From a virus (lineage: Duplodnaviria > Heunggongvirae > Uroviricota > Caudoviricetes), in the IMG/VR virus record IMGVR_UViG_2706794662_000007: a stretch of 64,000 bases of DNA; one strand, written 5' to 3'. The notes below the pieces were generated by a model, which was not told where the DNA came from, did no database searches, and was given only the letters and a program-made list of their open reading frames with translations. Of this stretch, positions 17,733 through 58,892 are shown one piece after another (positions within the stretch are counted from its first letter, which is position 1; every line of letters starts with the position of its first letter). Position numbers and translations under genes: made by a program.

Positions 17733-18165
17733 AATGGATCACACCGTCGGCAAAATAATTCCGACGCGCATTACAGGCGTCATAACGTTTTGTGCAGTAA
17801 TCCGCACCAGACATAGACGTCTGCTGGTTATTTTTGTCGAAATATGGACCGGTATAGCCGCATTCTGGCCCTCGGTATTTCCACGGGCAGGTGTTTTTAA
17901 TGATCTGACGATACGGCAGTTGTACCCCCATCAAATCGAACACACTGGACAATTCAAACTCGACAACCTGATGAGTTTCGAGAGTTTTCTGTTCGATAAA
18001 CCACATTTCATCCGGGAAATGTTGGTTTGGATCTGCTGTTGGGTTGCCGTCTTTAAAATTAACGGCATCGAGGAAGCGAGCCAGCGTCATCTTGCGAATA
18101 ATGCGGCAGCCAACAAGATCGTCGTTCGCCTGAACTTCCGCAGAGACGGTTCCGGCAAAGTTCGN
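17698..18165 (-). CDS. minor tail protein L-like (5' part lost in N-run)
   Basis: C-terminal Cys cluster CPWKYRGPECGYTG...C..RYDAC; N-terminus masked. Confidence 0.65.
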   Translation of the reverse strand, partial: XNFAGTVSAEVQANDDLVGCRIIRKMTLARFLDAVNFKDGNPTADPNQHFPDEMWFIEQKTLETHQVVEFELSSVFDLMGVQLPYRQIIKNTCPWKYRGPECGYTGPYFDKNNQQTSMSGADYCTKRYDACNARRNYFADGVIHFGGFIGATRYG

Positions 18166-18414
18166 NNNNNNNNNNNNNNNNNNNNNNNNNNNNNNNNNNN
18201 NNNNNNNNNNNNNNNNNNNNNNNNNNNNNNNNNNNNNNNNNNNNNNNNNNNNNNNNNNNNNNNNNNNNNNNNNNNNNNNNNNNNNNNNNNNNNNNNNNNN
18301 NNNNNNNNNNNNNNNNNNNNNNNNNNNNNNNNNNNNNNNNNNNNNNNNNNNNNNNNNNNNNNNNNNNNNNNNNNNNNNNNNNNNNNNNNNNNNNNNNNNN
18401 NNNNNNNNNNNNNN
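18166..18414. other. run of 249 N (unresolved or masked bases)
   Basis: literal n characters. Confidence 1.
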
Positions 18415-38654: not shown

Positions 38655-39248
38655 ATGAAACGTTCGTTACTTCTTGCTTGTATATACCTCTCGTCATTTT
38701 CCGCCAATGCGTTGTCAGATATCGTCTCCGACATGCAAAAAACGTACAGCATGTATACTTCTGAAGACGTACTAAAATACGAATCACGAGGTCTGATTCA
38801 ACCAGTCTGGTTCAGATTCTCAGATAACGCAGAAGAAACAATACTTAATGCAGGAAAAGAAAGATTACGGTTGCAAATTAACGGAACCGCTGTACCAGAA
38901 AACGTTAATGTAAGCTCTGACGAAGCCATGAAGCCATCTGGAATTGTTTTGGAAGTTCAAGACGGCACACTTTACTGTGATGAAATGGCTACAACAGGTT
39001 GCCAAGTAAACATTAGGGTTGGCAATGAAGAGCCTATCGTTACTTACGCCAAGGCTGAAGGGAATACAAGTGGAAAGGTATTGTTTATCGATGAAAATAC
39101 CTCAAAACGTATCGTTCGTGACATACAGAAAACAGCGAACTCTAAATCCGTCGATAAAAAAATCTATGTTGAGGTTCCCTTCTTTGTCGTTGGTAACAAA
39201 GAATTTAAATTTGGGTTGCTGAAAACACCTCTAAGAGTATCAGAATGA
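38655..39248 (+). CDS. secreted/periplasmic protein with signal peptide
   Basis: N-terminus MKRSLLLACIYLSSFSANA with AxA cleavage site. Confidence 0.5.
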   Translation: MKRSLLLACIYLSSFSANALSDIVSDMQKTYSMYTSEDVLKYESRGLIQPVWFRFSDNAEETILNAGKERLRLQINGTAVPENVNVSSDEAMKPSGIVLEVQDGTLYCDEMATTGCQVNIRVGNEEPIVTYAKAEGNTSGKVLFIDENTSKRIVRDIQKTANSKSVDKKIYVEVPFFVVGNKEFKFGLLKTPLRVSE

Positions 39249-39766
39249 GAACATTGGACATCACCTACGGCATACCGGCTGAAGTATGGCCGCGAGACTA
39301 CGAACATGCTGAACGTACCTTGCTCTTCTGGCGGAGTGCAAAATTTCCTGTAAGAGTCACTCTCGAAGACGGCCAAGTGTTTTGCATGTATGTCTACGGG
39401 CTATTGAGCGCAAGAAATAAGCTGAACCTCACACCAGATCCGCTTAGCAACACAAATCGTATAAGGCTCCCTCTTGAGCGCATTAGCACAATTGAGTCGG
39501 GCATAGAAGAGGTTGACACTTCATTCACAGGTCGACTAACGCTAAACAATGAACAGATGGTTAATCAGCCATCACGTCGTGACTTTTTTAAGATATGTCG
39601 TCAGGCTTACCAAAACGGCAAATCTATAAGGGTCTACATGGCAGACGGTCGCGAAATTGAGGGAACGTCAGATGGCGTTGACGCCTGTCTAGTCACACTT
39701 AAGTTGGAAGACGGTAGAAAAATACTTATTTTCTTCGATTGGGTTGAACGAATCCTTCCGTTTTAA
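39245..39766 (+). CDS. hypothetical protein, 173 aa
   Basis: ATGA overlap with preceding secreted-protein gene. Confidence 0.45.
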   Translation: MRTLDITYGIPAEVWPRDYEHAERTLLFWRSAKFPVRVTLEDGQVFCMYVYGLLSARNKLNLTPDPLSNTNRIRLPLERISTIESGIEEVDTSFTGRLTLNNEQMVNQPSRRDFFKICRQAYQNGKSIRVYMADGREIEGTSDGVDACLVTLKLEDGRKILIFFDWVERILPF

Positions 39767-41579: not shown

Positions 41580-41843
41580 NNNNNNNNNNNNNNNNNNNNN
41601 NNNNNNNNNNNNNNNNNNNNNNNNNNNNNNNNNNNNNNNNNNNNNNNNNNNNNNNNNNNNNNNNNNNNNNNNNNNNNNNNNNNNNNNNNNNNNNNNNNNN
41701 NNNNNNNNNNNNNNNNNNNNNNNNNNNNNNNNNNNNNNNNNNNNNNNNNNNNNNNNNNNNNNNNNNNNNNNNNNNNNNNNNNNNNNNNNNNNNNNNNNNN
41801 NNNNNNNNNNNNNNNNNNNNNNNNNNNNNNNNNNNNNNNNNNN
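41580..41843. other. run of 264 N
   Basis: literal n characters. Confidence 1.
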
Positions 41844-42324: not shown

Positions 42325-42528
42325 GATTAATTCCTTATCGTAAATAACAAATTGTTTTCTTGTTGGCGTTAATTATCGTTGTACGAATAAGGCGTCAAAG
42401 TGGAAAGTTGCGGTAGCCGGACGGGAACAGGTGGGTTTGTCGGTTGCCTGGAGGTAAGAGGTTGGTGTTTTTAGCCTGCGGGAAACAGGATGGTCATTTA
42501 AGGCCACCAGCAGTGGTGGCCTTAATAA

Positions 42529-44154: not shown

Positions 44155-44484
44155 TTACGCGAATATCGCAAGGAAGTCCTGAACGTCCCAATGCTGGACG
44201 AGGTGAAGATAGACCTTAGAAATCACGTCATTTTCGCTATCGCATGTGAAGTAGTACTTCTGGCTGCGGTTGTATGTGTCCACACAAAATTCGCTCATAT
44301 CCATAAAGTCAGCATCTTCACCCATGTCGCAAATCATCAAAGCAGGTGCGTCATCACGAGTCATCAGCTCCAGCACCCATCTTGAATTAATCAGAGTGGA
44401 AGACCAACCTTCCAGCTCATAAAACTGGTCAAACTCTTTTTGAGTCAATTTCTTAATTTGGTTGATGTCGATATTTGCAAACAT
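44155..44484 (-). CDS. hypothetical protein, ~109 aa (start at ATG 44484 with AAGGA SD)
   Basis: ORF track adjusted; family-1 motif 14 nt upstream. Confidence 0.4.
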   Translation of the reverse strand: MFANIDINQIKKLTQKEFDQFYELEGWSSTLINSRWVLELMTRDDAPALMICDMGEDADFMDMSEFCVDTYNRSQKYYFTCDSENDVISKVYLHLVQHWDVQDFLAIFA

Positions 44485-44622
44485 AAAGCAATCCTTAAAC
44501 ATGTTGTTTTCTGAATTACGTAAACAATACCAGTAAGAAAACGGCCACAAAGTATATCGTTACGGTGCTGCGCTGCCCCGAGGTTAATAGCGACAAAAGC
44601 CACCGTGCTGGTGGCCTCACTC

Positions 44623-44841
44623 TTAATCTTGGTCGTCCGGGAACTCGCTGTGTACCGCGCCCACCAGCTCCCGCTTTTCATCTTCACTCAGCAGGTGCCA
44701 GATATCCTTCCCTTTGGGCGATTCCCCTTCTGCCGGGACGAACGACCACAACTTGCGGTACAACTCCGGCCCCACTGCATCCAGACACTCAGCCAGGGAA
44801 TCCACGCCCCACACCTCAACCGTCACAGGCATCTTAATCAT
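44623..44841 (-). CDS. hypothetical protein, 72 aa
   Basis: ORF track. Confidence 0.35.
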   Translation of the reverse strand: MIKMPVTVEVWGVDSLAECLDAVGPELYRKLWSFVPAEGESPKGKDIWHLLSEDEKRELVGAVHSEFPDDQD

Positions 44842-45226
44842 CTCTTCATCCTCACTTCGTTTCTATAACGTCTAAATATGCTGTTTACTTGTTGGTGTTA
44901 TTATCGCAATAAGATAAAGGCGAAAAAGGATTTTATGTCGGGAAAGCCAGGCTGGGCAGTGAATATCCGGGAACGACACGAGAGCCAGTATTTACGATAT
45001 TCTGCTCTACGCGCGCCGCGGGGCTGGTGGGTAGAATAATCCTCTCCCCGAAAACCTACTGAAATCGATTGTGACCCGCTGGCTGTCTGGCACAATTACG
45101 CTGTATCTGGCATTCAGAGGGAATCCAGCGGTAAGCAAGTCAGCCTGCACGTGAGCGCCTCTCTTCTTCCCGCACATTACAGGTGGGTAGCTGCAACTCT
45201 CTCTCTCTCGCTATACCGGTACGCCG

Positions 45227-45362
45227 CCGTTCCAGAACCGGCATCGAGCCTTTTCCCGAAATCCACACAGGCAACTCGACCGTTTCCCTGAAAATCCCCA
45301 GCCGTTCCCCCGAAGGCAACCCAGCCGTTTCTGTAGCTGGATGCAACCTTTTCCCTGTATGG
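45227..45362. repeat. iteron-like array: six direct repeats of CCGTT(T)CC-type units at ~22-bp spacing
   Basis: copies near 45227, 45249, 45280, 45302, 45325, 45347 read directly; inside ORF-poor region. Confidence 0.5.
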
Positions 45363-46412
45363 ACCGAAGGCTGACCGTAGGGGGTGTTACGGGGGATAAA
45401 ATCAGGAGTTGAATAAATACGAAAAAGGAGGCGACCCCCCTCCTTCCCTCTCCACTTATACATACCTGGCTTCTTCGCTATACATGTTGTGTTTTATCTG
45501 TCTCAACCTCTCTATAGGCGTTAATGCTCACTCCTTCCAGAATGTTCTATACGGCGACTATTTCTGTTGGTGAATTGGGTGTGTTGTTTTCTCTGTCGGT
45601 GTATGTGGTTTCGTTAGTTTTGCGGTGGTTCTTCTATGGGGGTGTTCTCGTCGTTTTGGTGATTGTTCTTCTCCGTGTATGGAGTAATGGCAGGTGGGCG
45701 ATTGCTTTCGTTATTGTGTTTGAGTTGTTTGTCTGGAGTGTGTGAAGGCTTTTGTAGTTATTCGTGTATTGGGTAATGGCGTTTCCCGTGATTGTTATGT
45801 TTCGTGTCTTTTGGGATTGAGAGAAACCTTGCGGTTACAGGCTTCGTTAGGGTTTCAGCGGTTCAGGTGTTTCTTCGCTGTTTGGGTAATGGCGTGTCGT
45901 GGGTATCGCGCGTATGAATGTTTTCGGATTGCCTGTGAAAGTTAGGTTGGTTGTCCGGTAGCCTGGGGAGAAGAGGTGGGTCTTTTCGGTAGCCTGCCAT
46001 AAAGAGGTTGGTTGTTTTGGGTAATGGCATATGTGTTATTTGGTTGTTTTGTTATGCCTGAAAATAAGTTGTTTATATGGTTGTGTAACGCAACGGGAGC
46101 GATTTTGAGCGTGTGTTTTTGTTGGTAGTGTGTTGAGTCGTCTGTGGTGAAATTTGGACGCTGTGGCGCTATCTGCTGCGTAGAATTACGGGTATAAGAA
46201 GTGATGTGTGATAACGTCAATTTTTTAGACCAAATCGGGAGAAAGCGTTGATGTTTCGTTGATCTGTTATTTAGTTGTTTTCTTATTGGTATAAACAACC
46301 ATAACCTATTGATATTTAATGATGTGATTGCTGGTATGGGAGGGTAGTAGTGGCGATCAACGGGTTCTTATAGAAAAGAATCAAATTGTGACCGCCATTA
46401 TCAACGGTTTGA

Positions 46413-46598
46413 TTAGATGAGATGGTCTAATTCATCATCTATCATGGCTTTGACGCTGGAGTCGTTCACTCCATATTTATTTATGAGCTGTTTCAGCTCT
46501 GTCGAAAACTGAAGGTAGATATCGTGAGCGTTTTTCACTGTAGGTTCAACGCCACTCATTTCAAGCGCCTTTAGTAGATATGAGTCTTCTTTAAGCAT
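46413..46598 (-). CDS. small hypothetical protein, 61 aa
   Basis: ORF track. Confidence 0.3.
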   Translation of the reverse strand: MLKEDSYLLKALEMSGVEPTVKNAHDIYLQFSTELKQLINKYGVNDSSVKAMIDDELDHLI

Positions 46599-46634: not shown

Positions 46635-46934
46635 TTACCATTGCCAGCACTCAAGCCCTTCAACGACCGGTGCGCCACAATCAAAATGTACAGAGTTAAA
46701 GCCTACATCAAGTACTTTCTGAATGTTCGCAATCGCACCCTCGGATATACCATATCGACGCAACTCATCTTTCCAGTCATCGTCCTGTAACCCGGCGTGG
46801 ACAATGCAACCGTACTCAATTTGTGAAACCCAATCCAGCTCATTGCTTGCGATCATGAATCGGCGAGCATCTTCCTCTGATGTATGAGATGAACTGATCA
46901 ATGCCACCTGGTAGGCTTGGGTAATGTTCAACAT
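46635..46934 (-). CDS. hypothetical protein, 99 aa
   Basis: ORF track; two family-1 motif copies upstream. Confidence 0.4.
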   Translation of the reverse strand: MLNITQAYQVALISSSHTSEEDARRFMIASNELDWVSQIEYGCIVHAGLQDDDWKDELRRYGISEGAIANIQKVLDVGFNSVHFDCGAPVVEGLECWQW

Positions 46935-46988
46935 TTCAACTACTCCAAAACAAGTTGTTTTCTTATGTGGCTTATTATCTCAATCAAC

Positions 46989-47011
46989 AAAAGGTAGAAA
47001 ACAAATTGTTT
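46989..47011. repeat. 23-bp element AAAAGGTAGAAAACAAATTGTTT, left copy of exact direct repeat flanking metG-apbC
   Basis: identical 23-mer at 50832-50854. Confidence 0.8.
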
Positions 47012-47047
47012 TAGGGCTTGTGTAAATCAGGAGGGATTGTGTCTATA

Positions 47048-47075
47048 TGAAAATGCCCGGCGTGTTGCCGGGCAT
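47048..47075 (-). terminator. metG rho-independent terminator
   Basis: GCCCGGC-GTGTT-GCCGGGC hairpin plus U-tract on minus strand. Confidence 0.6.
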
Positions 47076-47095
47076 TGCGAAGAGAGGTTGTTTAA

Positions 47096-49034
47096 TTACT
47101 TAACCTGGTGGCCAGGTTTAGCACCAGCATCCGGGCTTAACAGGAAGATATCTTTCCCGCCAGGACCGGCAGCCATCACCATGCCTTCAGAGATACCGAA
47201 GCGCATTTTACGTGGTGCCAGGTTAGCCACCATAATGGTGTGACGACCAATCAGTGCCTGTGGATCTGGATAAGCGGAACGGATGCCTGAGAAGACATTA
47301 CGCTTTTCACCACCGAGATCCAGCGTCAGGCGAAGCAGTTTGTCAGAACCTTCGACAAACTCCGCGTTTTCAATCAGCGCCACACGCAGGTCAACTTTGG
47401 CGAAGTCGTCAAAGGTGATGGTTTCCTGAATCGGTTCGTCAGCCAGTGGGCCAGTTACCGGTGCAGCTGTGGCTTTCACTTCTTCTTTGGATGCTTCCAC
47501 CAGTGCTTCCACCTGTTTCATATCGATACGGTTATACAGTGCCTTGAACGGATTCACTTTATGGCCCAGAAGCGGTTGCTGGATACCATCCCAGGTCAGT
47601 TCTGTATTCAGGAATGCTTCTGCACGTTCAGTCAGTTTCGGCAGTACCGGTTTCAGGTACGTCATCAGCACGCGGAACAGGTTAATGCCCATAGAGCAAA
47701 TCGCCTGCAGATCTGCATCGCGACCTTCCTGCTTCGCCACCACCCACGGAGCCTGTTCATCGACATAGCGATTAGCCAGGTCAGCCAATGCCATGATTTC
47801 ACGGATAGCTTTACCAAATTCGCGGCTTTCCCATGCTTCGCCAATCACTTCAGCGGCATCAGTAAAGGTTTTGTACAGTTGCGGGTCAGCCAGTTCGCTT
47901 GTCAGCACGCCGTCAAAACGCTTGTTGATAAAGCCTGCATTACGGGAGGCCAGGTTAACCACTTTGTTCACGATATCGGCATTCACGCGCTGAACGAAAT
48001 CTTCCAGGTTGAGATCGATATCATCAATGCGCGAAGAGAGTTTCGCAGTGTAGTAGTAACGCAGGCTGTCAGCGTCAAAATGATTCAGCCAGGTGCTGGC
48101 TTTAATAAAGGTGCCGCGAGACTTGGACATCTTCGCGCCGTTCACCGTCACATAGCCGTGAACAAACAGGTTGGTCGGCTTGCGGAAGTTGCTGCCTTCC
48201 AGCATGGCAGGCCAGAACAGACTGTGGAAGTAAACGATATCTTTGCCGATGAAGTGGTACAGCTCGGCGGTGGAGTCTTTCTTCCAGTATTCGTCGAAGC
48301 TTACGCTGTCGCCGCGCTTGTCGCACAGATTCTTGAAAGAACCCATGTAGCCAATCGGCGCGTCCAGCCAGACGTAGAAATATTTGCCCGGCGCGTTCGN
48401 NNNNNNNNNNNNNNNNNNNNNNNNNNNNNNNNNNNNNNNNNNNNNNNNNNNNNNNNNNNNNNNNNNNNNNNNNNNNNNNNNNNNNNNNNNNNNNNNNNNN
48501 NNNNNNNNNNNNNNNNNNNNNNNNNNNNNNNNNNNNNNNNNNNNNNNNNNNNNNNNNNNNNNNNNNNNNNNNNNNNNNNNNNNNNNNNNNNNNNNNNNNN
48601 NNNNNNNNNNNNNNNNNNNNNNNNNNNNNNNNNNNNNNNNNNNNNNNNNNNNNNNNNNNNNNNNNNNNNNNNNNNNNNNNNNNNNNNNNNNNNNNNNNNN
48701 NNNNNNNNNNNNNNNNNNNNNNNNNNNNCTCTTCGCTGTGCGTCGAGTGATAGTTGTCATAGCTGATGTTAAAGCCTGCGAAATCAGTCTGATGTTCCTG
48801 ACTCATTTCGCCAATCATCTGTTCCGGTGTGATACCAAGCTGCTGTGCTTTCAGCATGATTGGCGTACCGTGGGCATCGTCGGCACAGATGAAATTAACC
48901 TCGTGGCCGCGCATTCGCTGGTAACGAACCCAGACATCAGCCTGGATGTGCTCCAGCATATGGCCGAGGTGGATTGAGCCGTTAGCGTACGGCAGCGCGC
49001 ACGTCACCAGAATTTTCTTCGCGACTTGGGTCAT
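47096..49034 (-). CDS. metG: methionine--tRNA ligase (interrupted by N-run; frame differs on the two sides of the mask)
   Basis: N-terminus [29 protein letters not shown] and C-terminus ...[24 protein letters not shown] recognised as enterobacterial MetRS. Confidence 0.9.
48390..48728. other. run of 339 N inside metG
   Basis: literal n characters. Confidence 1.
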
Positions 49035-49191
49035 AGTAGGCATTACTTCTTTGTAGTGAAAAGGGGCTTGATAGTAACAAAATGGCCTTATGTCTGCCAT
49101 GTGATAACAGCATTTCTCATAAATGATTAAATGTCGTAGCTGGAGTACACTACAAGGCGACAATTGCGCAAATTAAAATAAAGGAGACGGG

Positions 49192-50904: not shown

Positions 50905-51423
50905 CTAAAAATCAAANNNNNNNNNNNNNNNNNNNNNNNNNNNNNNNNNNNNNNNNNNNNNNNNNNNNNNNNNNNNNNNNNNNNNNNNNNNNNNNNNNNN
51001 NNNNNNNNNNNNNNNNNNNNNNNNNNNNNNNNNNNNNNNNNNNNNNNNNNNNNNNNNNNNNNNNNNNNNNNNNNNNNNNNNNNNNNNNNNNNNNNNNNNN
51101 NNNNNNNNNNNNNNNNNNNNNNNNNNNNNNNNNNNNNNNNNNNNNNNNNNNNNNNNNNNNNNNNNNNNNTTTAAAGGAAGATAGGTTCCCCATAGTAGCT
51201 GTCTGCCGTGCGCTCGTGTGAAATACCGGGCCATCTTCGGATTGCTATGCTGCTTAGGAGCGCCTGGTCTGTATGTCTGATACCCGGCCAACATCCCATC
51301 AAACCTGTATAGAGGGAATGTAACAACTCCTTCGCTTTCATCGATCCACTGTCTATATGGATGCACATCATAGCGGTAGTTACGAGTTAGCAAATGAGCT
51401 TCCAGCTTTCCAAATTTAGTCAT
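50905..51423 (-). CDS. hypothetical protein interrupted by N-run
   Basis: N-terminal part MTKFGKLEAHLLTRNYRYDVHPYRQWIDESEG... visible; start at internal Met. Confidence 0.4.
   Translation of the reverse strand: MTKFGKLEAHLLTRNYRYDVHPYRQWIDESEGVVTFPLYRFDGMLAGYQTYRPGAPKQHSNPKMARYFTRAHGRQLLWGTYLPLXXXXXXXXXXXXXXXXXXXXXXXXXXXXXXXXXXXXXXXXXXXXXXXXXXXXXXXXXXXXXXXXXXXXXXXXXXXXXXXXXXXXXFDF
50917..51169. other. run of 253 N
   Basis: literal n characters. Confidence 1.
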
Positions 51424-53489: not shown

Positions 53490-53739
53490 NNNNNNNNNNN
53501 NNNNNNNNNNNNNNNNNNNNNNNNNNNNNNNNNNNNNNNNNNNNNNNNNNNNNNNNNNNNNNNNNNNNNNNNNNNNNNNNNNNNNNNNNNNNNNNNNNNN
53601 NNNNNNNNNNNNNNNNNNNNNNNNNNNNNNNNNNNNNNNNNNNNNNNNNNNNNNNNNNNNNNNNNNNNNNNNNNNNNNNNNNNNNNNNNNNNNNNNNNNN
53701 NNNNNNNNNNNNNNNNNNNNNNNNNNNNNNNNNNNNNNN
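53490..53739. other. run of 250 N
   Basis: literal n characters. Confidence 1.
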
Positions 53740-57187: not shown

Positions 57188-58892
57188 TCATTTAACGCGT
57201 TTGAAAACGTATACGCTGACTGTGATCCCTGTGTCTTCAAACTCGTTGGTAAACGACTTCCCTCTGGCATAAACGTAATTATCCATCGTCATCCAGTCCA
57301 GTATTGGCGCNNNNNNNNNNNNNNNNNNNNNNNNNNNNNNNNNNNNNNNNNNNNNNNNNNNNNNNNNNNNNNNNNNNNNNNNNNNNNNNNNNNNNNNNNN
57401 NNNNNNNNNNNNNNNNNNNNNNNNNNNNNNNNNNNNNNNNNNNNNNNNNNNNNNNNNNNNNNNNNNNNNNNNNNNNNNNNNNNNNNNNNNNNNNNNNNNN
57501 NNNNNNNNNNNNNNNNNNNNNNNNNNNNNNNNNNNNNNNNNNNNNNNNNNNNNNNNNNNNNNNNNCCAGATCGGCGTTAATATAGGCCAGAAGATCCCCA
57601 CGTCCGGCTTGAGGCTCCAACAGCTTCTCACCAGGCTTCAATTCAGTGGCTCTGGCAACGTACTCAGCAATCAAGCGTGGGGTAGGGTAGAACTGGTGTG
57701 ATTTTGTATCCGGTATTAAACCGGTAGCCACAATCGTATTTAGCGTATGGCCGATCTCATACGGGAACTGCCAGTGCTTTTTCTCCTGCACGCCGCCAAT
57801 GAAGCTCAGTGTGCGCTCAAGCTCTTCCACCTGCGACTTCTGGAGAGCTGAATCAGAGAAGTACCATACGCCTTTGTCTTTGCTCAATCGCCCGTCACGA
57901 AGCGCAGTGCGAACCGGCACGGAGATCGTCTTCTGGATTAACCCGAACTGCTTTGGTGCCCGTGTTTTTGGCGCAGTTCGGCATGGCGCGGGGATTGCAG
58001 CAGGCATACTGTAAGCCAGCACCTCATTCAACTTCCAGGCCACGTCAGGATGTATTTCAAAGTGAACGTTGCCGTTCTTGAACATCTTCACGCGCATCAG
58101 ATTTCCATCGACGTTCATCCAGTCACCGGTCTGGCAGTCGTTTGCCCGATACGCAGCTGATAGCACCTCAGCAGTGCGGTTGATGGTAATAAATTCTTTG
58201 TGCGCGAAGAAATGAAGCAAGACACGCAGATCGTCGATGTAGTCCTCTTTGCGATAGTTCACGCTAACGCTGTCACGCCAGAAATCAGAAATGCAGTCAG
58301 CGATTATCAGACGCTCGCTGAAACCGTTTGTCTTATTTGTCTTGTGCGCAGGACTCAGCGCCTTAAACAAGCCATACACGCGCTCAGAGAGATATTTGTG
58401 CCTGTCATTCAGCAAATTAAGCATCGTTGGTATGACCGTTTCTGCTTTGAACTCCGGTACACCAACGAACTCTTTAACCTTCATCTGATAGCCGGTTCTG
58501 TCAGTTTTGATGACTTCCTGCTTGCCCTCGATAAATAGCTCACGCCACTCGTCGCGACGGGAAGCTGGCATGATCAGCAGAACGTTAGTCATATCCGTAA
58601 CCTTCCTCCAGTACTCGGCCCAAATATTCTGTTTCACCCATTCCAGATCGACGTTATCCAGCCAGACTCGATTCAAACGTGAGCGATCTTCATCTGGTCG
58701 GTGGTTTAGTCGAAGCAGGCGATTAATCATGTTGTGGCGTTCATCGCCATAAACGAAGTCGTGTACCTGATACATGAAGGAGATCTCTTTCTCGCACTCG
58801 GCCACAATTTCGTGGATGACGTTCATTTCCTGTCGATAGTCGATAGCAGTGTTTGAGCTGGCATCGCCCATGATGGAAAGGGCTGTATTCAT
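57188..58892 (-). CDS. gamma-class N6-adenine DNA methyltransferase-like protein with ~390-aa N-terminal extension (interrupted by N-run; C-terminal frame uncertain)
   Basis: motif X-like QFYPTPR and motif I-like LEPQAGRGDL just before mask. Confidence 0.5.
57311..57565. other. run of 255 N
   Basis: literal n characters. Confidence 1.

What the first reader, a model, noticed from the sequence alone, without database searches (positions are those of the whole stretch)
45500..46410. Strongly strand-skewed G+T-rich tract with degenerate repeats and no credible ORF
About 900 bp on the plus strand are almost free of long A/C runs, with recurring GGGTAATGGC and GGTAGCCTG...GAGGTTGGT units; the latter also occurs at 42410-42470. 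Plus-strand ORFs here translate to Val/Leu/Phe/Gly low-complexity strings. It could be a structured non-coding RNA, a degenerate repeat array, or part of the adjacent origin-like region.
Basis: seen in the sequence. Interest (0 to 1): 0.5.

Follow-up and report, generated by a model that had tools for sequence, protein, structure and literature searches.

The report
Strand-skewed non-coding block of phage-plasmids
The G+T-rich stretch is real: it is the core of a 1.5-kb gene-free, repeat-rich region present once in every SSU5/pHCM2-type phage-plasmid of enterobacteria, it is neither a gene nor a folded RNA, and it most likely acts as a one-way transcription stop and protein-binding control (possibly replication) site whose function has never been tested.

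Summary
The window is an SSU5/pHCM2-like phage-plasmid, 100% identical to Shigella sonnei plasmid LR213459.1. Window 45550-46200 is 73% G+T against a window mean of 50%. In a complete relative it is the single outlier of the 109-kb genome. The tract is the core of a 1.53-kb gene-free block (44882-46410) conserved at 65-97% identity in 839 plasmids and 12 phages, and the skew is kept in every clade.

It is not coding: frames are not conserved, there is no codon periodicity, frameshifting indels occur, and no protein family matches. It is not a structured RNA: Rfam finds nothing, folding is no better than shuffles, and there is no covariation. It is not a tandem array.

The block holds three families of same-orientation repeats, one copy of the genome's dispersed palindromic operator, and a hairpin that folds only as minus-strand RNA. 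Published strand-specific RNA-seq of a 95%-identical relative shows minus-strand transcription stopping at the block's edge.

Best reading (about 0.35): an untranslated, unfoldable, C-rich/G-poor zone acting as a polar, Rho-type transcription barrier between cargo genes and early lytic genes, with embedded protein-binding sites. Main rival (about 0.3): the lytic replication origin. No tool result tests either function directly.

The parts
44882..46410 (.). Whole conserved gene-free block. Homology to relatives starts and stops at these edges, and variable cargo genes begin to the right of about 46404-46416.
   Evidence: no annotated gene in RefSeq relatives; alignment break points; deep alignment.
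45550..46200 (+). Core G+T-rich tract (73% G+T on the plus strand; the minus-strand RNA would be A 40, C 33, G 12, U 15%).
   Evidence: The skew is kept in all relatives.
45658..45691 (+). Motif A copy 1 (TTGTTCTTCTCCGTGTATGGAGTAATGGC), the most conserved element of the tract.
   Evidence: (near-invariant columns).
45750..45780 (+). Motif A copy 2 (..TTATTCGTGTATTGGGTAATGGC).
   Evidence: (D7).
45863..45893 (+). Motif A copy 3 (..TTCTTCGCTGTTTGGGTAATGGC).
   Evidence: (D7).
46009..46028 (+). Motif A copy 4 (core TTTTGGGTAATGGC).
   Evidence: (D9).
45922..46018 (+). Motif B array: three units of 30-31 bp (CGGTAGCCTGG-N6-AGAGGTGGGT). Close relatives carry unit-length (31-nt) indels.
   Evidence: (D1).
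42407..42500 (+). Second motif B array (three units, same orientation), just upstream of the promoter/operator of the 160-aa gene. It is present at the same relative place in relatives of every clade checked.
45221..45357 (+). Motif C: six C-rich units ((G/A)CC(G/T)TT(T/C)(C/T)C core) spaced about 20-30 bp. The skew is opposite to the tract (32-38% G+T).
45421..45446 (-). Hairpin plus U-run (GAAGGAGGGGGGTCGCCTCCTTTTTC GTATTTATT), an intrinsic terminator for minus-strand transcripts at the point where the skew flips.
   Evidence: It folds at -12.3 kcal/mol as minus-strand RNA against -6.8 as plus-strand RNA in 10/10 relatives, with G.U pairs. The U-run is weaker outside the E. coli clade.
46062..46074 (.). 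Copy (1 mismatch here, perfect in relatives) of the dispersed palindromic operator AAACAAnTTGTTT. Half-sites TTGTTTT(C/G)T lie at 45584, 46044 and 46275.
46192..46220 (-). Candidate minus-strand promoter TTGACG-17-TTATAC preceded by an A-tract. Both hexamers are invariant in 10 relatives, but the -10 is non-canonical and the consensus scan did not call it.
   Evidence: for the sequence, for the scan. It is silent in lysogens.
46287..46295 (+). Candidate plus-strand extended -10 (TGGTATAAA), in the same arrangement as the half-operator/-10 module of the early promoters.
   Evidence: (D4, I1, I8). Inference only.
46351..46397 (.). Invariant inverted repeat TGGCGATCA-N29-TGACCGCCA, flanked by IHF-consensus matches at 46302-46314 and 46399-46414.
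   Evidence: invariant, no covariation; 3 of the window's 7 IHF-consensus hits.
46310..46348 (-). First C-rich, G-poor stretch of the minus-strand RNA, directly after the last cargo gene and the inverted repeat (41-63% C and 0-6% G in all ten relatives; sequence itself is variable).
   Evidence: The RNA-seq drop falls here.

Best explanation
The tract is the core of a single-copy, 1.53-kb, gene-free cis-acting block that belongs to SSU5/pHCM2-type phage-plasmids. The block lies between the slot where variable cargo genes sit (here the metG side) and a block of small early genes that each carry a repressor operator.

The genes flanking the block on both sides are read on the minus strand. A transcript that enters the block is therefore untranslated RNA of about 70% A+C, with a C/G ratio of 1.7-2.8, and it cannot base-pair with itself. 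I propose that the skew is kept for this property. On this reading the block is a long loading zone for the termination factor Rho. It starts right after the last cargo gene and is closed by a hairpin terminator at 45446-45421. That makes a one-way barrier which keeps cargo-gene transcription out of the early lytic genes while the element lives as a plasmid.

Set into the barrier are short, strongly conserved, same-orientation repeats: A (4 copies), B (3 copies at 30-31 bp), C (6 copies at 20-30 bp), plus one repressor operator. These look like DNA sites for proteins, for regulation or possibly for lytic replication.

Shown: the composition, its conservation, the absence of coding and of RNA structure, the strand-specific hairpin, and the silence of the minus strand in lysogens. 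Inferred: the role of Rho, the barrier function, and protein binding to the repeats.
For: (1) Composition is conserved while sequence is not. G+T stays at 0.65-0.78 in E. coli, Salmonella, Enterobacter, Cronobacter and Klebsiella relatives at 65-75% identity. G<->T two-state columns are the commonest variable class in the tract. Tract diversity (pi 0.078) is about that of synonymous sites in the neighbouring gene (0.087).

(2) The minus-strand RNA is nearly structure-free: -109 kcal/mol over 749 nt, and no conserved pairs.

(3) There is no ORF to shield the RNA from Rho.

(4) The 32 nt just after the last cargo gene are 41-63% C and 0-6% G in all ten relatives, although only 69% identical.

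(5) Strand-specific RNA-seq of the 95%-identical Cyrano (PMC9928086 S1 Table) gives 57 normalised reads for the upstream gene CYRAN_102 in LB and log2 9.2 in another condition. The tract 'gene' CYRAN_103, on the same strand, reads 0 in LB and stays near the floor in all five conditions. No canonical intrinsic terminator lies between them.

(6) A hairpin that folds only as minus-strand RNA, followed by a U-run, ends the zone.

(7) The block abuts a cargo hotspot, since homology to relatives breaks at 46404-46416.
Against: Rho dependence was not tested. Rho favours pyrimidine-rich C/U RNA, and YC dimers in the tract are not enriched beyond what the composition gives, so the richness in A is explained only by the need to avoid pairing. 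In the RNA-seq the signal is already gone within about 115 nt of the block edge, so 650 further nucleotides seem more than a barrier needs. A barrier does not explain the strongly conserved repeat families A, B and C, the second B array 3.5 kb away, or the operator. No other intergenic region of the genome uses this design. Outside the E. coli clade the U-run of the hairpin is weak, and the covariation test on it is not significant.
Confidence: 0.35

Rival explanations
1. The block is the origin of lytic replication. Proteins of the phage-plasmid's own replication machinery bind the iteron-like repeats A, B and C. The repressor operator keeps the site silent in lysogeny. The strand asymmetry supplies a structure-free single strand for helicase or primase loading.
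For: Three families of same-orientation repeats, two of them phased at about 2-3 helical turns, with unit-length copy-number changes in B. The block is single-copy and the only repeat-rich non-coding region besides the RepB iterons. The element encodes its own DnaB-like helicase, a toprim-domain protein, the Pol III alpha subunit, RNase HI, a ligase and RecA, so a lytic origin separate from the plasmid replicon is expected. A repressor operator lies inside the block and IHF-consensus sites lie at its edge. The skew flips polarity at about 45460, with G/T-rich strands running 5'->3' away from that centre. A second B array 3.5 km apart in sequence terms (3.5 kb away) recalls the ori/crr pair of phage P4 (from memory).
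Against: There are no DnaA boxes. There is no clearly AT-rich unwinding element, since the tract is about 45% G+C. No initiator gene has been identified. The 160-aa protein next to B array 1 is an orphan with no structural relative. No replication or copy-number data exist. Known origins do not need a 650-nt keto skew.
Confidence: 0.3
2. The block is a relic with no function of its own. It would be decayed duplications of the early promoter/operator module, with the skew produced by strand-biased mutation.
For: Motif A shares GCCATT and GAGAAGAACAA-like pieces with the promoter/operator module, and operator half-sites occur in the tract. Overall tract diversity is about the synonymous level.
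Against: The block has been kept, in the same place and at about the same length, across five or more genera and 839 plasmids. It contains blocks of invariant columns. The skew has sharp edges and the adjacent 200 bp have the opposite skew, which regional mutation bias does not produce. The enrichment in half-sites is confined to one clade.
Confidence: 0.1
3. The plus strand is transcribed, giving a G/U-rich RNA. That RNA either stays on its template as an R-loop (priming replication, as in ColE1 or T4, with the element's own RNase HI) or acts as an antisense regulator.
For: G-rich non-template strands favour R-loops (established knowledge). The element encodes RNase HI. Plus-strand promoter-like modules lie at 46044-46074 and 46275-46295. 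The plus strand is not covered by the published per-gene RNA-seq table.
Against: No plausible plus-strand promoter lies upstream of the tract. The promoter-like modules point away from the core. The boundary hairpin works only on the minus strand. All genes downstream on the plus strand would be read antisense. The plus-strand RNA shows no excess structure.
Confidence: 0.08
4. The minus-strand A/C-rich RNA is a product in its own right: an unstructured sponge for an RNA-binding protein (Hfq, as with CrcZ, or a phage factor).
For: Repeated motifs in an unstructured RNA ended by a terminator; a candidate promoter at 46220-46192.
Against: Normalised reads are 0 in lysogens and near the floor in all five conditions. 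Hfq-type (ARN)n and AAnAAnAA motifs are at chance level for the composition. The -10 element is non-canonical.
Confidence: 0.05
5. It encodes a protein or a structured RNA: minus-strand ORF 45942-46298, the plus-strand hydrophobic ORFs, or a ribozyme/riboswitch-like RNA.
For: Some depositors annotated ORFs here (CYRAN_103/104, SSU5_108/109). Open frames are long on both strands.
Against: The open frames follow from the scarcity of stop codons in this composition and differ between relatives. The window and Cyrano differ by a frameshift inside the 73-aa ORF. Variable sites show no 3-periodicity, whereas the neighbouring gene shows 0.031/0.007/0.087. Only 6 of 32 indels are multiples of 3. Pfam and PHROG give no hits for the 4 tract ORFs, against 6 of 6 flanking genes. 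Rfam gives no hits, and there is no excess folding or covariation.
Confidence: 0.04

Closest known systems
Rho-dependent terminators with rut sites, e.g. lambda tR1 (rutA/rutB) and the Rho-terminated untranslated leaders of the phage P4 and P1 immunity regions (from established knowledge, not tested here)
   Same: Untranslated, C-rich, G-poor, unstructured RNA downstream of a gene. Composition matters rather than sequence. It sits in a temperate phage's early region, and transcript loss occurs without a canonical hairpin-plus-U terminator.
   Different: About ten times longer than a usual rut site. It is A-rich rather than pyrimidine-rich, carries three conserved repeat families and an operator, and ends in an intrinsic terminator. 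Rho dependence is unproven.
Iteron-type phage and plasmid origins (lambda ori, P1 oriR/incA, P4 ori plus crr)
   Same: Arrays of same-orientation repeats phased by about 2-3 helical turns, a second array a few kb away, host-factor (IHF-like) sites, a single copy per genome, and repressor control.
   Different: No DnaA boxes, no marked AT-rich unwinding element, no adjacent initiator gene. The true plasmid iterons (GTATGCTGTCAGCGGT, 13 copies) lie 34 kb away and are unrelated. The extreme keto skew has no counterpart in those origins.
Herpesvirus lytic origins (oriLyt of HCMV/EBV; from memory)
   Same: A structurally complex, gene-free region of more than 1 kb with several repeat families and strand-asymmetric blocks, active only in the lytic cycle.
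   Different: An unrelated virus lineage. Those origins depend on G-rich transcripts forming RNA-DNA hybrids, and no promoter for such a transcript was found here.
Protein-sponge RNAs with repeated unstructured motifs (CrcZ for Hfq/Crc)
   Same: An A/C-rich RNA with repeated motifs and a terminator.
   Different: Hfq-type motifs are not enriched and the RNA is not detected in lysogens.

Membership tests
Rho-dependent terminator / rut region | At least 80 nt of untranslated RNA with C well above G and little secondary structure on the transcribed strand | tested here: met
   Minus-strand RNA has C 33%, G 12% over 651 nt. C/G is 1.7-2.4 over about 900 nt in all 10 relatives. The first 32 nt are 41-63% C and 0-6% G. 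MFE is -109 kcal/mol over 749 nt. No conserved ORF.
Rho-dependent terminator / rut region | Transcription enters the region and is lost without a canonical intrinsic terminator | tested here: met
   In Cyrano strand-specific RNA-seq, CYRAN_102 reads 57 (up to log2 9.2) and CYRAN_103 reads 0 to about 6. Only an inverted repeat without a U-run lies between them. The data come from a 95%-identical relative, not this plasmid.
Rho-dependent terminator / rut region | Read-through increases when Rho is inhibited (bicyclomycin, rho mutants) | not testable with these tools
   No such data set is available.
Intrinsic (Rho-independent) terminator | G+C-rich hairpin directly followed by a U-run on the transcribed strand | tested here: met
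   Position 45446-45421 on the minus strand, 11-bp stem plus UUUUUCGUAUUUAUU. The stem is kept in 10/10 relatives with 96% of cells paired and G.U pairs that only work on the minus strand. The U-run is interrupted in the Salmonella/Klebsiella clades and covariation is not significant (58/500 shuffles reach the observed value).
Iteron-type replication origin | Several same-orientation repeats phased by whole helical turns | tested here: met
   B: 3 units at 30-31 bp. C: 6 units at about 20-30 bp. A: 4-5 copies at 89-135 bp.
Iteron-type replication origin | DnaA boxes and an adjacent AT-rich unwinding element | tested here: not met
   No TTWTNCACA match in the block. The tract is about 45% G+C, and only short 60-100-bp stretches of about 70% A+T occur at 46030-46090 and 46225-46330 (read directly).
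Iteron-type replication origin | Cognate initiator gene next to the iterons; autonomous replication of the cloned site | not testable with these tools
   The neighbouring small proteins have no family or fold match.
Plasmid RepB/RepFIB replicon iterons (copy control locus) | Repeats matching the iterons that flank the rep gene | tested here: not met
   The rep-flanking iterons are GTATGCTGTCAGCGGT (13 copies), unrelated to A, B and C and 34 kb away.
Known structured RNA family (Rfam) | Covariance-model match at gathering score; excess folding energy; covarying pairs | tested here: not met
   0 hits at the gathering threshold in the whole window. The only E<5 hit scores 19 bits against a 40-bit threshold. 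The folding z-score is +0.75 on the plus strand. No pair changes on both sides in blocks A3 and A5.
Protein-coding gene | Conserved frame, codon-position pattern of substitutions, in-frame indels, family match | tested here: not met
   (details in the report).
RfaH ops element (GGCGGTAGnnTG on the non-template strand of a long operon leader) | Match to the 12-mer including G1 and G2, on the non-template strand upstream of an operon | tested here: not met
   B units read TCCGGTAGCCTG / TTCGGTAGCCTG (2 mismatches). There are 51 matches of that quality in the window against 34 expected. They lie on the strand opposite to all downstream genes.
Chi (GCTGGTGG) cluster | Several Chi or near-Chi octamers in one orientation | tested here: not met
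   Only one 1-mismatch site in the tract (45690). Exact Chi sites lie outside it.
Type III toxin-antitoxin RNA repeats (ToxI-like) | Tandem repeats of about 34-40 nt followed by a terminator and a ToxN/AbiQ-family toxin gene | tested here: not met
   The protein downstream of B array 1 has no Pfam or PADLOC match and no fold relative. B array 2 has no gene after it.
CRISPR or other tandem array | Regularly spaced identical repeats | tested here: not met
   TRF reports nothing in 45000-46500. Motif A spacing is irregular at 89, 113 and 135 bp.

The most novel reading that the evidence does not exclude
The single-copy, strand-asymmetric block is the so far unmapped lytic origin of SSU5/pHCM2-type phage-plasmids. 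It would be a new origin design, in which a stretch of about 650 nt built from only two non-pairing bases per strand gives a structure-free single strand for loading the element's own helicase/primase. It would be guarded on one side by a Rho-type transcription barrier and switched off by the prophage repressor.
Probability: 0.2. Interest if true: 0.65.

Novelty: new variant of a known kind. Interest (0 to 1): 0.45.

Why it matters
SSU5/pHCM2-type phage-plasmids are common. The block was found on plasmids of 243 of 5,426 complete E. coli genomes and in 839 PLSDB plasmids, mostly Klebsiella and Escherichia. They carry cargo such as metG, dfrA51 and toxin-antitoxin genes. How they switch from plasmid life to lytic growth, where lytic replication starts, and how cargo expression is kept apart from lytic genes are all unknown. 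I found no paper that describes this region.

A conserved, single-copy control region next to the cargo slot is the obvious place to look for those answers, and it gives a defined 1.5-kb target for deletion and reporter tests. If the barrier reading is right, it would also be an unusually clean natural example of selection on RNA composition rather than sequence.

Tried and rejected
- Coding, rejected. Frames are not conserved, there is no 3-periodicity, indels are out of frame, and there are no Pfam/PHROG hits.
- Structured RNA, rejected. Rfam at gathering and E-value thresholds, single-sequence folds of both strands, and RNAalifold on three blocks all gave nothing.
- Tandem or CRISPR-like array, rejected. 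There are no tRNA or tmRNA genes in the window either.
- Plasmid RepB iterons or a copy-control locus, rejected. The iterons are unrelated.
- DnaA boxes: none found.
- Chi cluster, rejected.
- RfaH ops resemblance of motif B: at chance level and on the wrong strand.
- Hfq sponge: ARN and AAnAAnAA motifs are at the expected level.
- Array of repressor half-sites: GTTGTTT is enriched 6-fold in the window's clade only, with 0-1 copies in other clades.
- Type III toxin-antitoxin, rejected.
- Virion ends or a packaging site. Contig ends near the locus fall at the metG side (about 46,900-47,900) and are best read as assembly breaks at the chromosomal metG duplicate. The terminase genes are 13 kb away.
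- Literature. Six searches and three papers found no description of the region.
- A fragment of the block in large Klebsiella cointegrate plasmids was looked at and was uninformative.
Full report
WHAT THE WINDOW IS

The tract and its flanks are 100% identical to Shigella sonnei plasmid LR213459.1. They are 94-98% identical to about 110-kb E. coli plasmids such as p09EL50 of O104:H4 and to phage Cyrano of strain LF82, and about 68% identical to Salmonella phage SSU5. In complete E. coli genomes the tract occurs in 243 of 5,426 genomes, always on plasmids and never on chromosomes.

The annotation of p09EL50 shows tail, capsid and terminase genes and a RepB plasmid replicon. It also shows a full set of replication genes: a DnaB-like helicase, a toprim-domain protein, Pol III alpha, RNase HI, a ligase and RecA. 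Nearly every gene is on the strand that is the minus strand of this window. The element is therefore an SSU5/pHCM2-type phage-plasmid that carries metG and apbC as cargo.

Yes. The core 45550-46200 is 73% G+T (A 14.9, C 12.1, G 33.2, T 39.8%). Its longest A/C run is 5 nt. 200-nt windows reach 0.78, against a window mean of 0.50 and sd of 0.047. In the complete genome of p09EL50 the best 600-nt window is this one, at 0.747; the runner-up is 0.595 and the genome mean is 0.501 with sd 0.032.

They are dispersed or short-phased direct repeats, not a tandem array.

EXTENT AND CONSERVATION

In RefSeq relatives no gene is annotated across about 1.5 kb here. Against 37 close relatives fetched from viral contigs and genome records, homology runs as one block from window 44882 to 46404-46416. 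To the right of that point different relatives carry different genes, so this is a cargo slot. On the left, a 370-bp piece holding a 72-aa gene is present or absent.

At greater distance the block aligns across E. coli, Salmonella, Enterobacter, Cronobacter and Klebsiella elements with 76% mean column identity. PLSDB holds 839 plasmids with a match and the phage collection holds 12. The G+T skew is present at the same place in every relative examined.

NOT A GENE

Open frames are long on both strands simply because stop codons are rare in this composition. Their limits differ from relative to relative. The 73-aa plus-strand ORF of the window is broken by a 1-nt indel in the 95%-identical Cyrano. 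Variable columns show no 3-base periodicity (0.53/0.58/0.60). By contrast, the neighbouring gene 44155-44484 shows diversity of 0.031/0.007/0.087 at codon positions 1/2/3 in the same set of genomes.

Only 6 of 32 distinct indels among close relatives are multiples of three. The four tract ORFs match no Pfam or PHROG family, whereas six of six flanking small genes match PHROGs at E<1e-40.

NOT A FOLDED RNA

Rfam finds nothing at gathering thresholds in the whole window. At a permissive threshold it finds only a 19-bit match against a 40-bit cut-off. As RNA the plus strand folds no better than shuffles (z = +0.75). The minus strand is almost unfolded, at -109 kcal/mol for 749 nt. Consensus folding of conserved sub-blocks gives no pair with changes on both sides.

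ANATOMY, LEFT TO RIGHT ON THE PLUS STRAND

(i) 45221-45357: six C-rich units with core (G/A)CC(G/T)TT(T/C)(C/T)C, spaced about 20-30 bp. The skew here is the opposite of the tract.

(ii) 45421-45446: a hairpin followed by a U-run on the minus strand. In all ten relatives it folds better as minus-strand RNA (mean -12.3 against -6.8 kcal/mol), because four of its ten pairs are often G.U. One pair changes on both sides. The formal covariation test is not significant, and the U-run is weaker outside the E. coli clade.

(iii) 45550-46030: the skewed core, with four copies of motif A (TTCTTCTCCGTGTATkGrGTAATGGC) spaced 89-135 bp. Copy 1 is nearly invariant across genera.

(iv) 45922-46018: three 30-31-bp units of motif B. 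Close relatives show 31-nt unit indels. A second B array in the same orientation lies 3.5 kb to the left, directly upstream of the promoter of a conserved 160-aa gene, in relatives of every clade checked.

(v) 46062-46074: one copy of a palindrome, AAACAAnTTGTTT, which occurs perfectly at nine other places in the window. There it always lies between a -10-like element and the ribosome site of a minus-strand gene. It is evidently the operator of a dispersed repressor. The tract copy has no convincing promoter next to it.

(vi) 46192-46220: an invariant TTGACG-17-TTATAC on the minus strand. Its -10 is poor and the consensus scan did not call it.

(vii) 46351-46397: an invariant inverted repeat. 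Three of the window's seven IHF-consensus matches lie beside it.

(viii) On the minus-strand RNA, the 32 nt right after that repeat are 41-63% C and 0-6% G in all ten relatives, although only 69% identical in sequence.

HOW IT EVOLVES

Overall diversity of the tract among 33 close relatives is 0.078. That is about the synonymous level of the neighbouring gene (0.087), so most positions are free to change. Yet G+T content stays at 0.65-0.78 over deep divergence. G<->T two-state columns are the commonest variable class in the tract (65, against 50 and 53 for the two transition classes), unlike in the flanks. The skew has sharp edges and the adjoining 200 bp have the reverse skew. Regional mutation bias does not explain that pattern, so the composition itself appears to be maintained.

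EXPRESSION

Misson et al. 2023 (PMC9928086) re-analysed strand-specific RNA-seq (GSE154648) of LF82, which carries Cyrano. In their S1 Table the annotated 'gene' CYRAN_103 corresponds to window 45942-46298 on the minus strand. It reads log2(FPKM+5) = 2.32, i.e. zero, in both LB replicates and at most 4.27 in any of five conditions. The gene directly upstream on the same strand, CYRAN_102, reads 57 normalised counts in LB and up to log2 9.2. CYRAN_104, over the left arm, stays at background.

Minus-strand transcription therefore ends within about 115 nt of entering the block. No hairpin-plus-U terminator is found there. The table says nothing about the plus strand or about induced cells.

INTERPRETATION

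Two features need explaining: a composition that is conserved without sequence conservation, and islands of strongly conserved, oriented repeats.

The first fits a requirement on a single strand. Since the flanking genes are read on the minus strand, that strand is most simply the minus-strand RNA: untranslated, unable to pair (A+C), C-rich and G-poor. Those are the properties of a Rho loading site. Together with the abrupt loss of transcript at the block edge, the terminator hairpin at the far end and the position next to the cargo slot, this leads to my preferred reading. The block is a polar transcription barrier that insulates the early lytic genes from cargo-gene transcription in the lysogen (confidence about 0.35).

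That reading has weaknesses. Rho dependence is untested. The A-richness is explained only indirectly. 650 nt is more than seems necessary. The repeats are not explained at all.

The second feature, together with the single-copy status, the repressor operator, the IHF-like sites and the fact that no other intergenic region except the RepB origin has repeat arrays, fits a DNA site where proteins assemble. The most obvious candidate is the unmapped lytic origin (about 0.3). The two readings are compatible with each other. Against the origin: there are no DnaA boxes, no marked AT-rich element, and no identifiable initiator.

LEADS THAT FAILED

These were: Chi, RfaH ops, Hfq motifs, repressor half-site arrays, a type III antitoxin, the RepB iterons, packaging ends, and the 160-aa neighbour of B array 1. 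That neighbour has a confident model but no sequence-family or fold relative.

NOVELTY

No paper found in six searches describes this region. The parts (rut-like zone, terminator, iterons, operator) are known kinds of element. Their combination, in a 650-nt two-letter tract that is single-copy and family-wide, is unusual. I file it as a new variant of a known kind, of moderate interest, and every functional statement still needs experiment.

Noticed in passing
window 1296, 4532, 32992, 44012, 46948, 46999, 50842, 60540, 61269 (perfect); 42345, 43110, 44497, 46062 (1 mismatch): A palindrome AAACAAnTTGTTT, often extended to AGAAAACAAnTTGTTTTCT. Nine perfect copies occur in 64 kb where about 0.004 would be expected. 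Nearly all lie between a -10-like element and the Shine-Dalgarno/ATG of a minus-strand gene. It looks like the operator of a dispersed prophage repressor, as the C1 operators are in phage P1.
   Followed up: partly
window 46404-46416: Homology to most close relatives breaks exactly here. Different relatives carry different genes to the right (a 561-bp gene, a 735-bp coiled-coil gene, others), so this is a cargo-exchange hotspot. It sits next to an invariant inverted repeat and palindromic IHF-like sites.
   Followed up: partly
window 47096-49163 (-) and about 49.3-50.4 kb (+): The phage-plasmid carries full-length metG (methionine--tRNA ligase) and apbC. Several metagenome contigs of relatives end just before metG, probably because assemblies break at the chromosomal copy.
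   Followed up: partly
window 39245-39766 (+): A 173-aa ORF. Its p09EL50 homologue matches Pfam Flag1_repress (FljA, repressor of phase-1 flagellin) at E = 9e-80, an unexpected flagellar regulator on a phage-plasmid.
   Followed up: partly
[not shown]
   Followed up: yes
window 42493-42520: A perfect 10-bp hairpin (AAGGCCACCA GCAG TGGTGGCCTT) that contains a Chi octamer on the minus strand. In the window, 9 of 13 exact Chi sites are on the minus strand, and near-Chi octamers are twice the shuffled expectation (74 against 37).
   Followed up: no
window 45453-45461 (+) and 46192-46203 (-): The motif CACTT(CTT)ATAC(C) flanks the skewed core in inverted orientation, about 740 bp apart, and both copies are invariant in ten relatives. 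Its meaning is unknown and it could be chance.
   Followed up: no
window 44512-44882: A 370-bp piece with a 72-aa gene (44623-44841) is present in the window and some relatives but absent from most close relatives. The adjoining 44882-45200 is more diverse (pi 0.155) than synonymous sites, which suggests allele exchange.
   Followed up: partly
window 46073-46084: Directly after the tract's operator copy lies ATG-GTT-GTG-TAA. A three-codon ATG...TAA mini-frame is kept at this spot in the other clades, without a Shine-Dalgarno sequence.
   Followed up: no
window 18165-18414, 41580-41843, 48400-48728, 50917-51169, 53490-53739, 57311-57565: Six runs of N (250-329 nt) mask parts of genes, including metG and the gene after the 160-aa ORF. 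This is a data-set artefact, not biology.
   Followed up: yes
Cyrano OV696614.1 40268-40822 (outside this window): In LF82 RNA-seq the 'hypothetical protein' CYRAN_43, next to the integrase and repressor, is expressed about 720-fold above the prophage background. It might be a non-coding RNA.
   Followed up: no
p09EL50 NC_018651.1 about 60.56-62.31 kb (locus L013 25361-27113; outside this window): Thirteen copies of GTATGCTGTCAGCGGT flank the RepB gene on both sides, the classical P1/F-like arrangement of origin plus copy-control iterons.
   Followed up: partly
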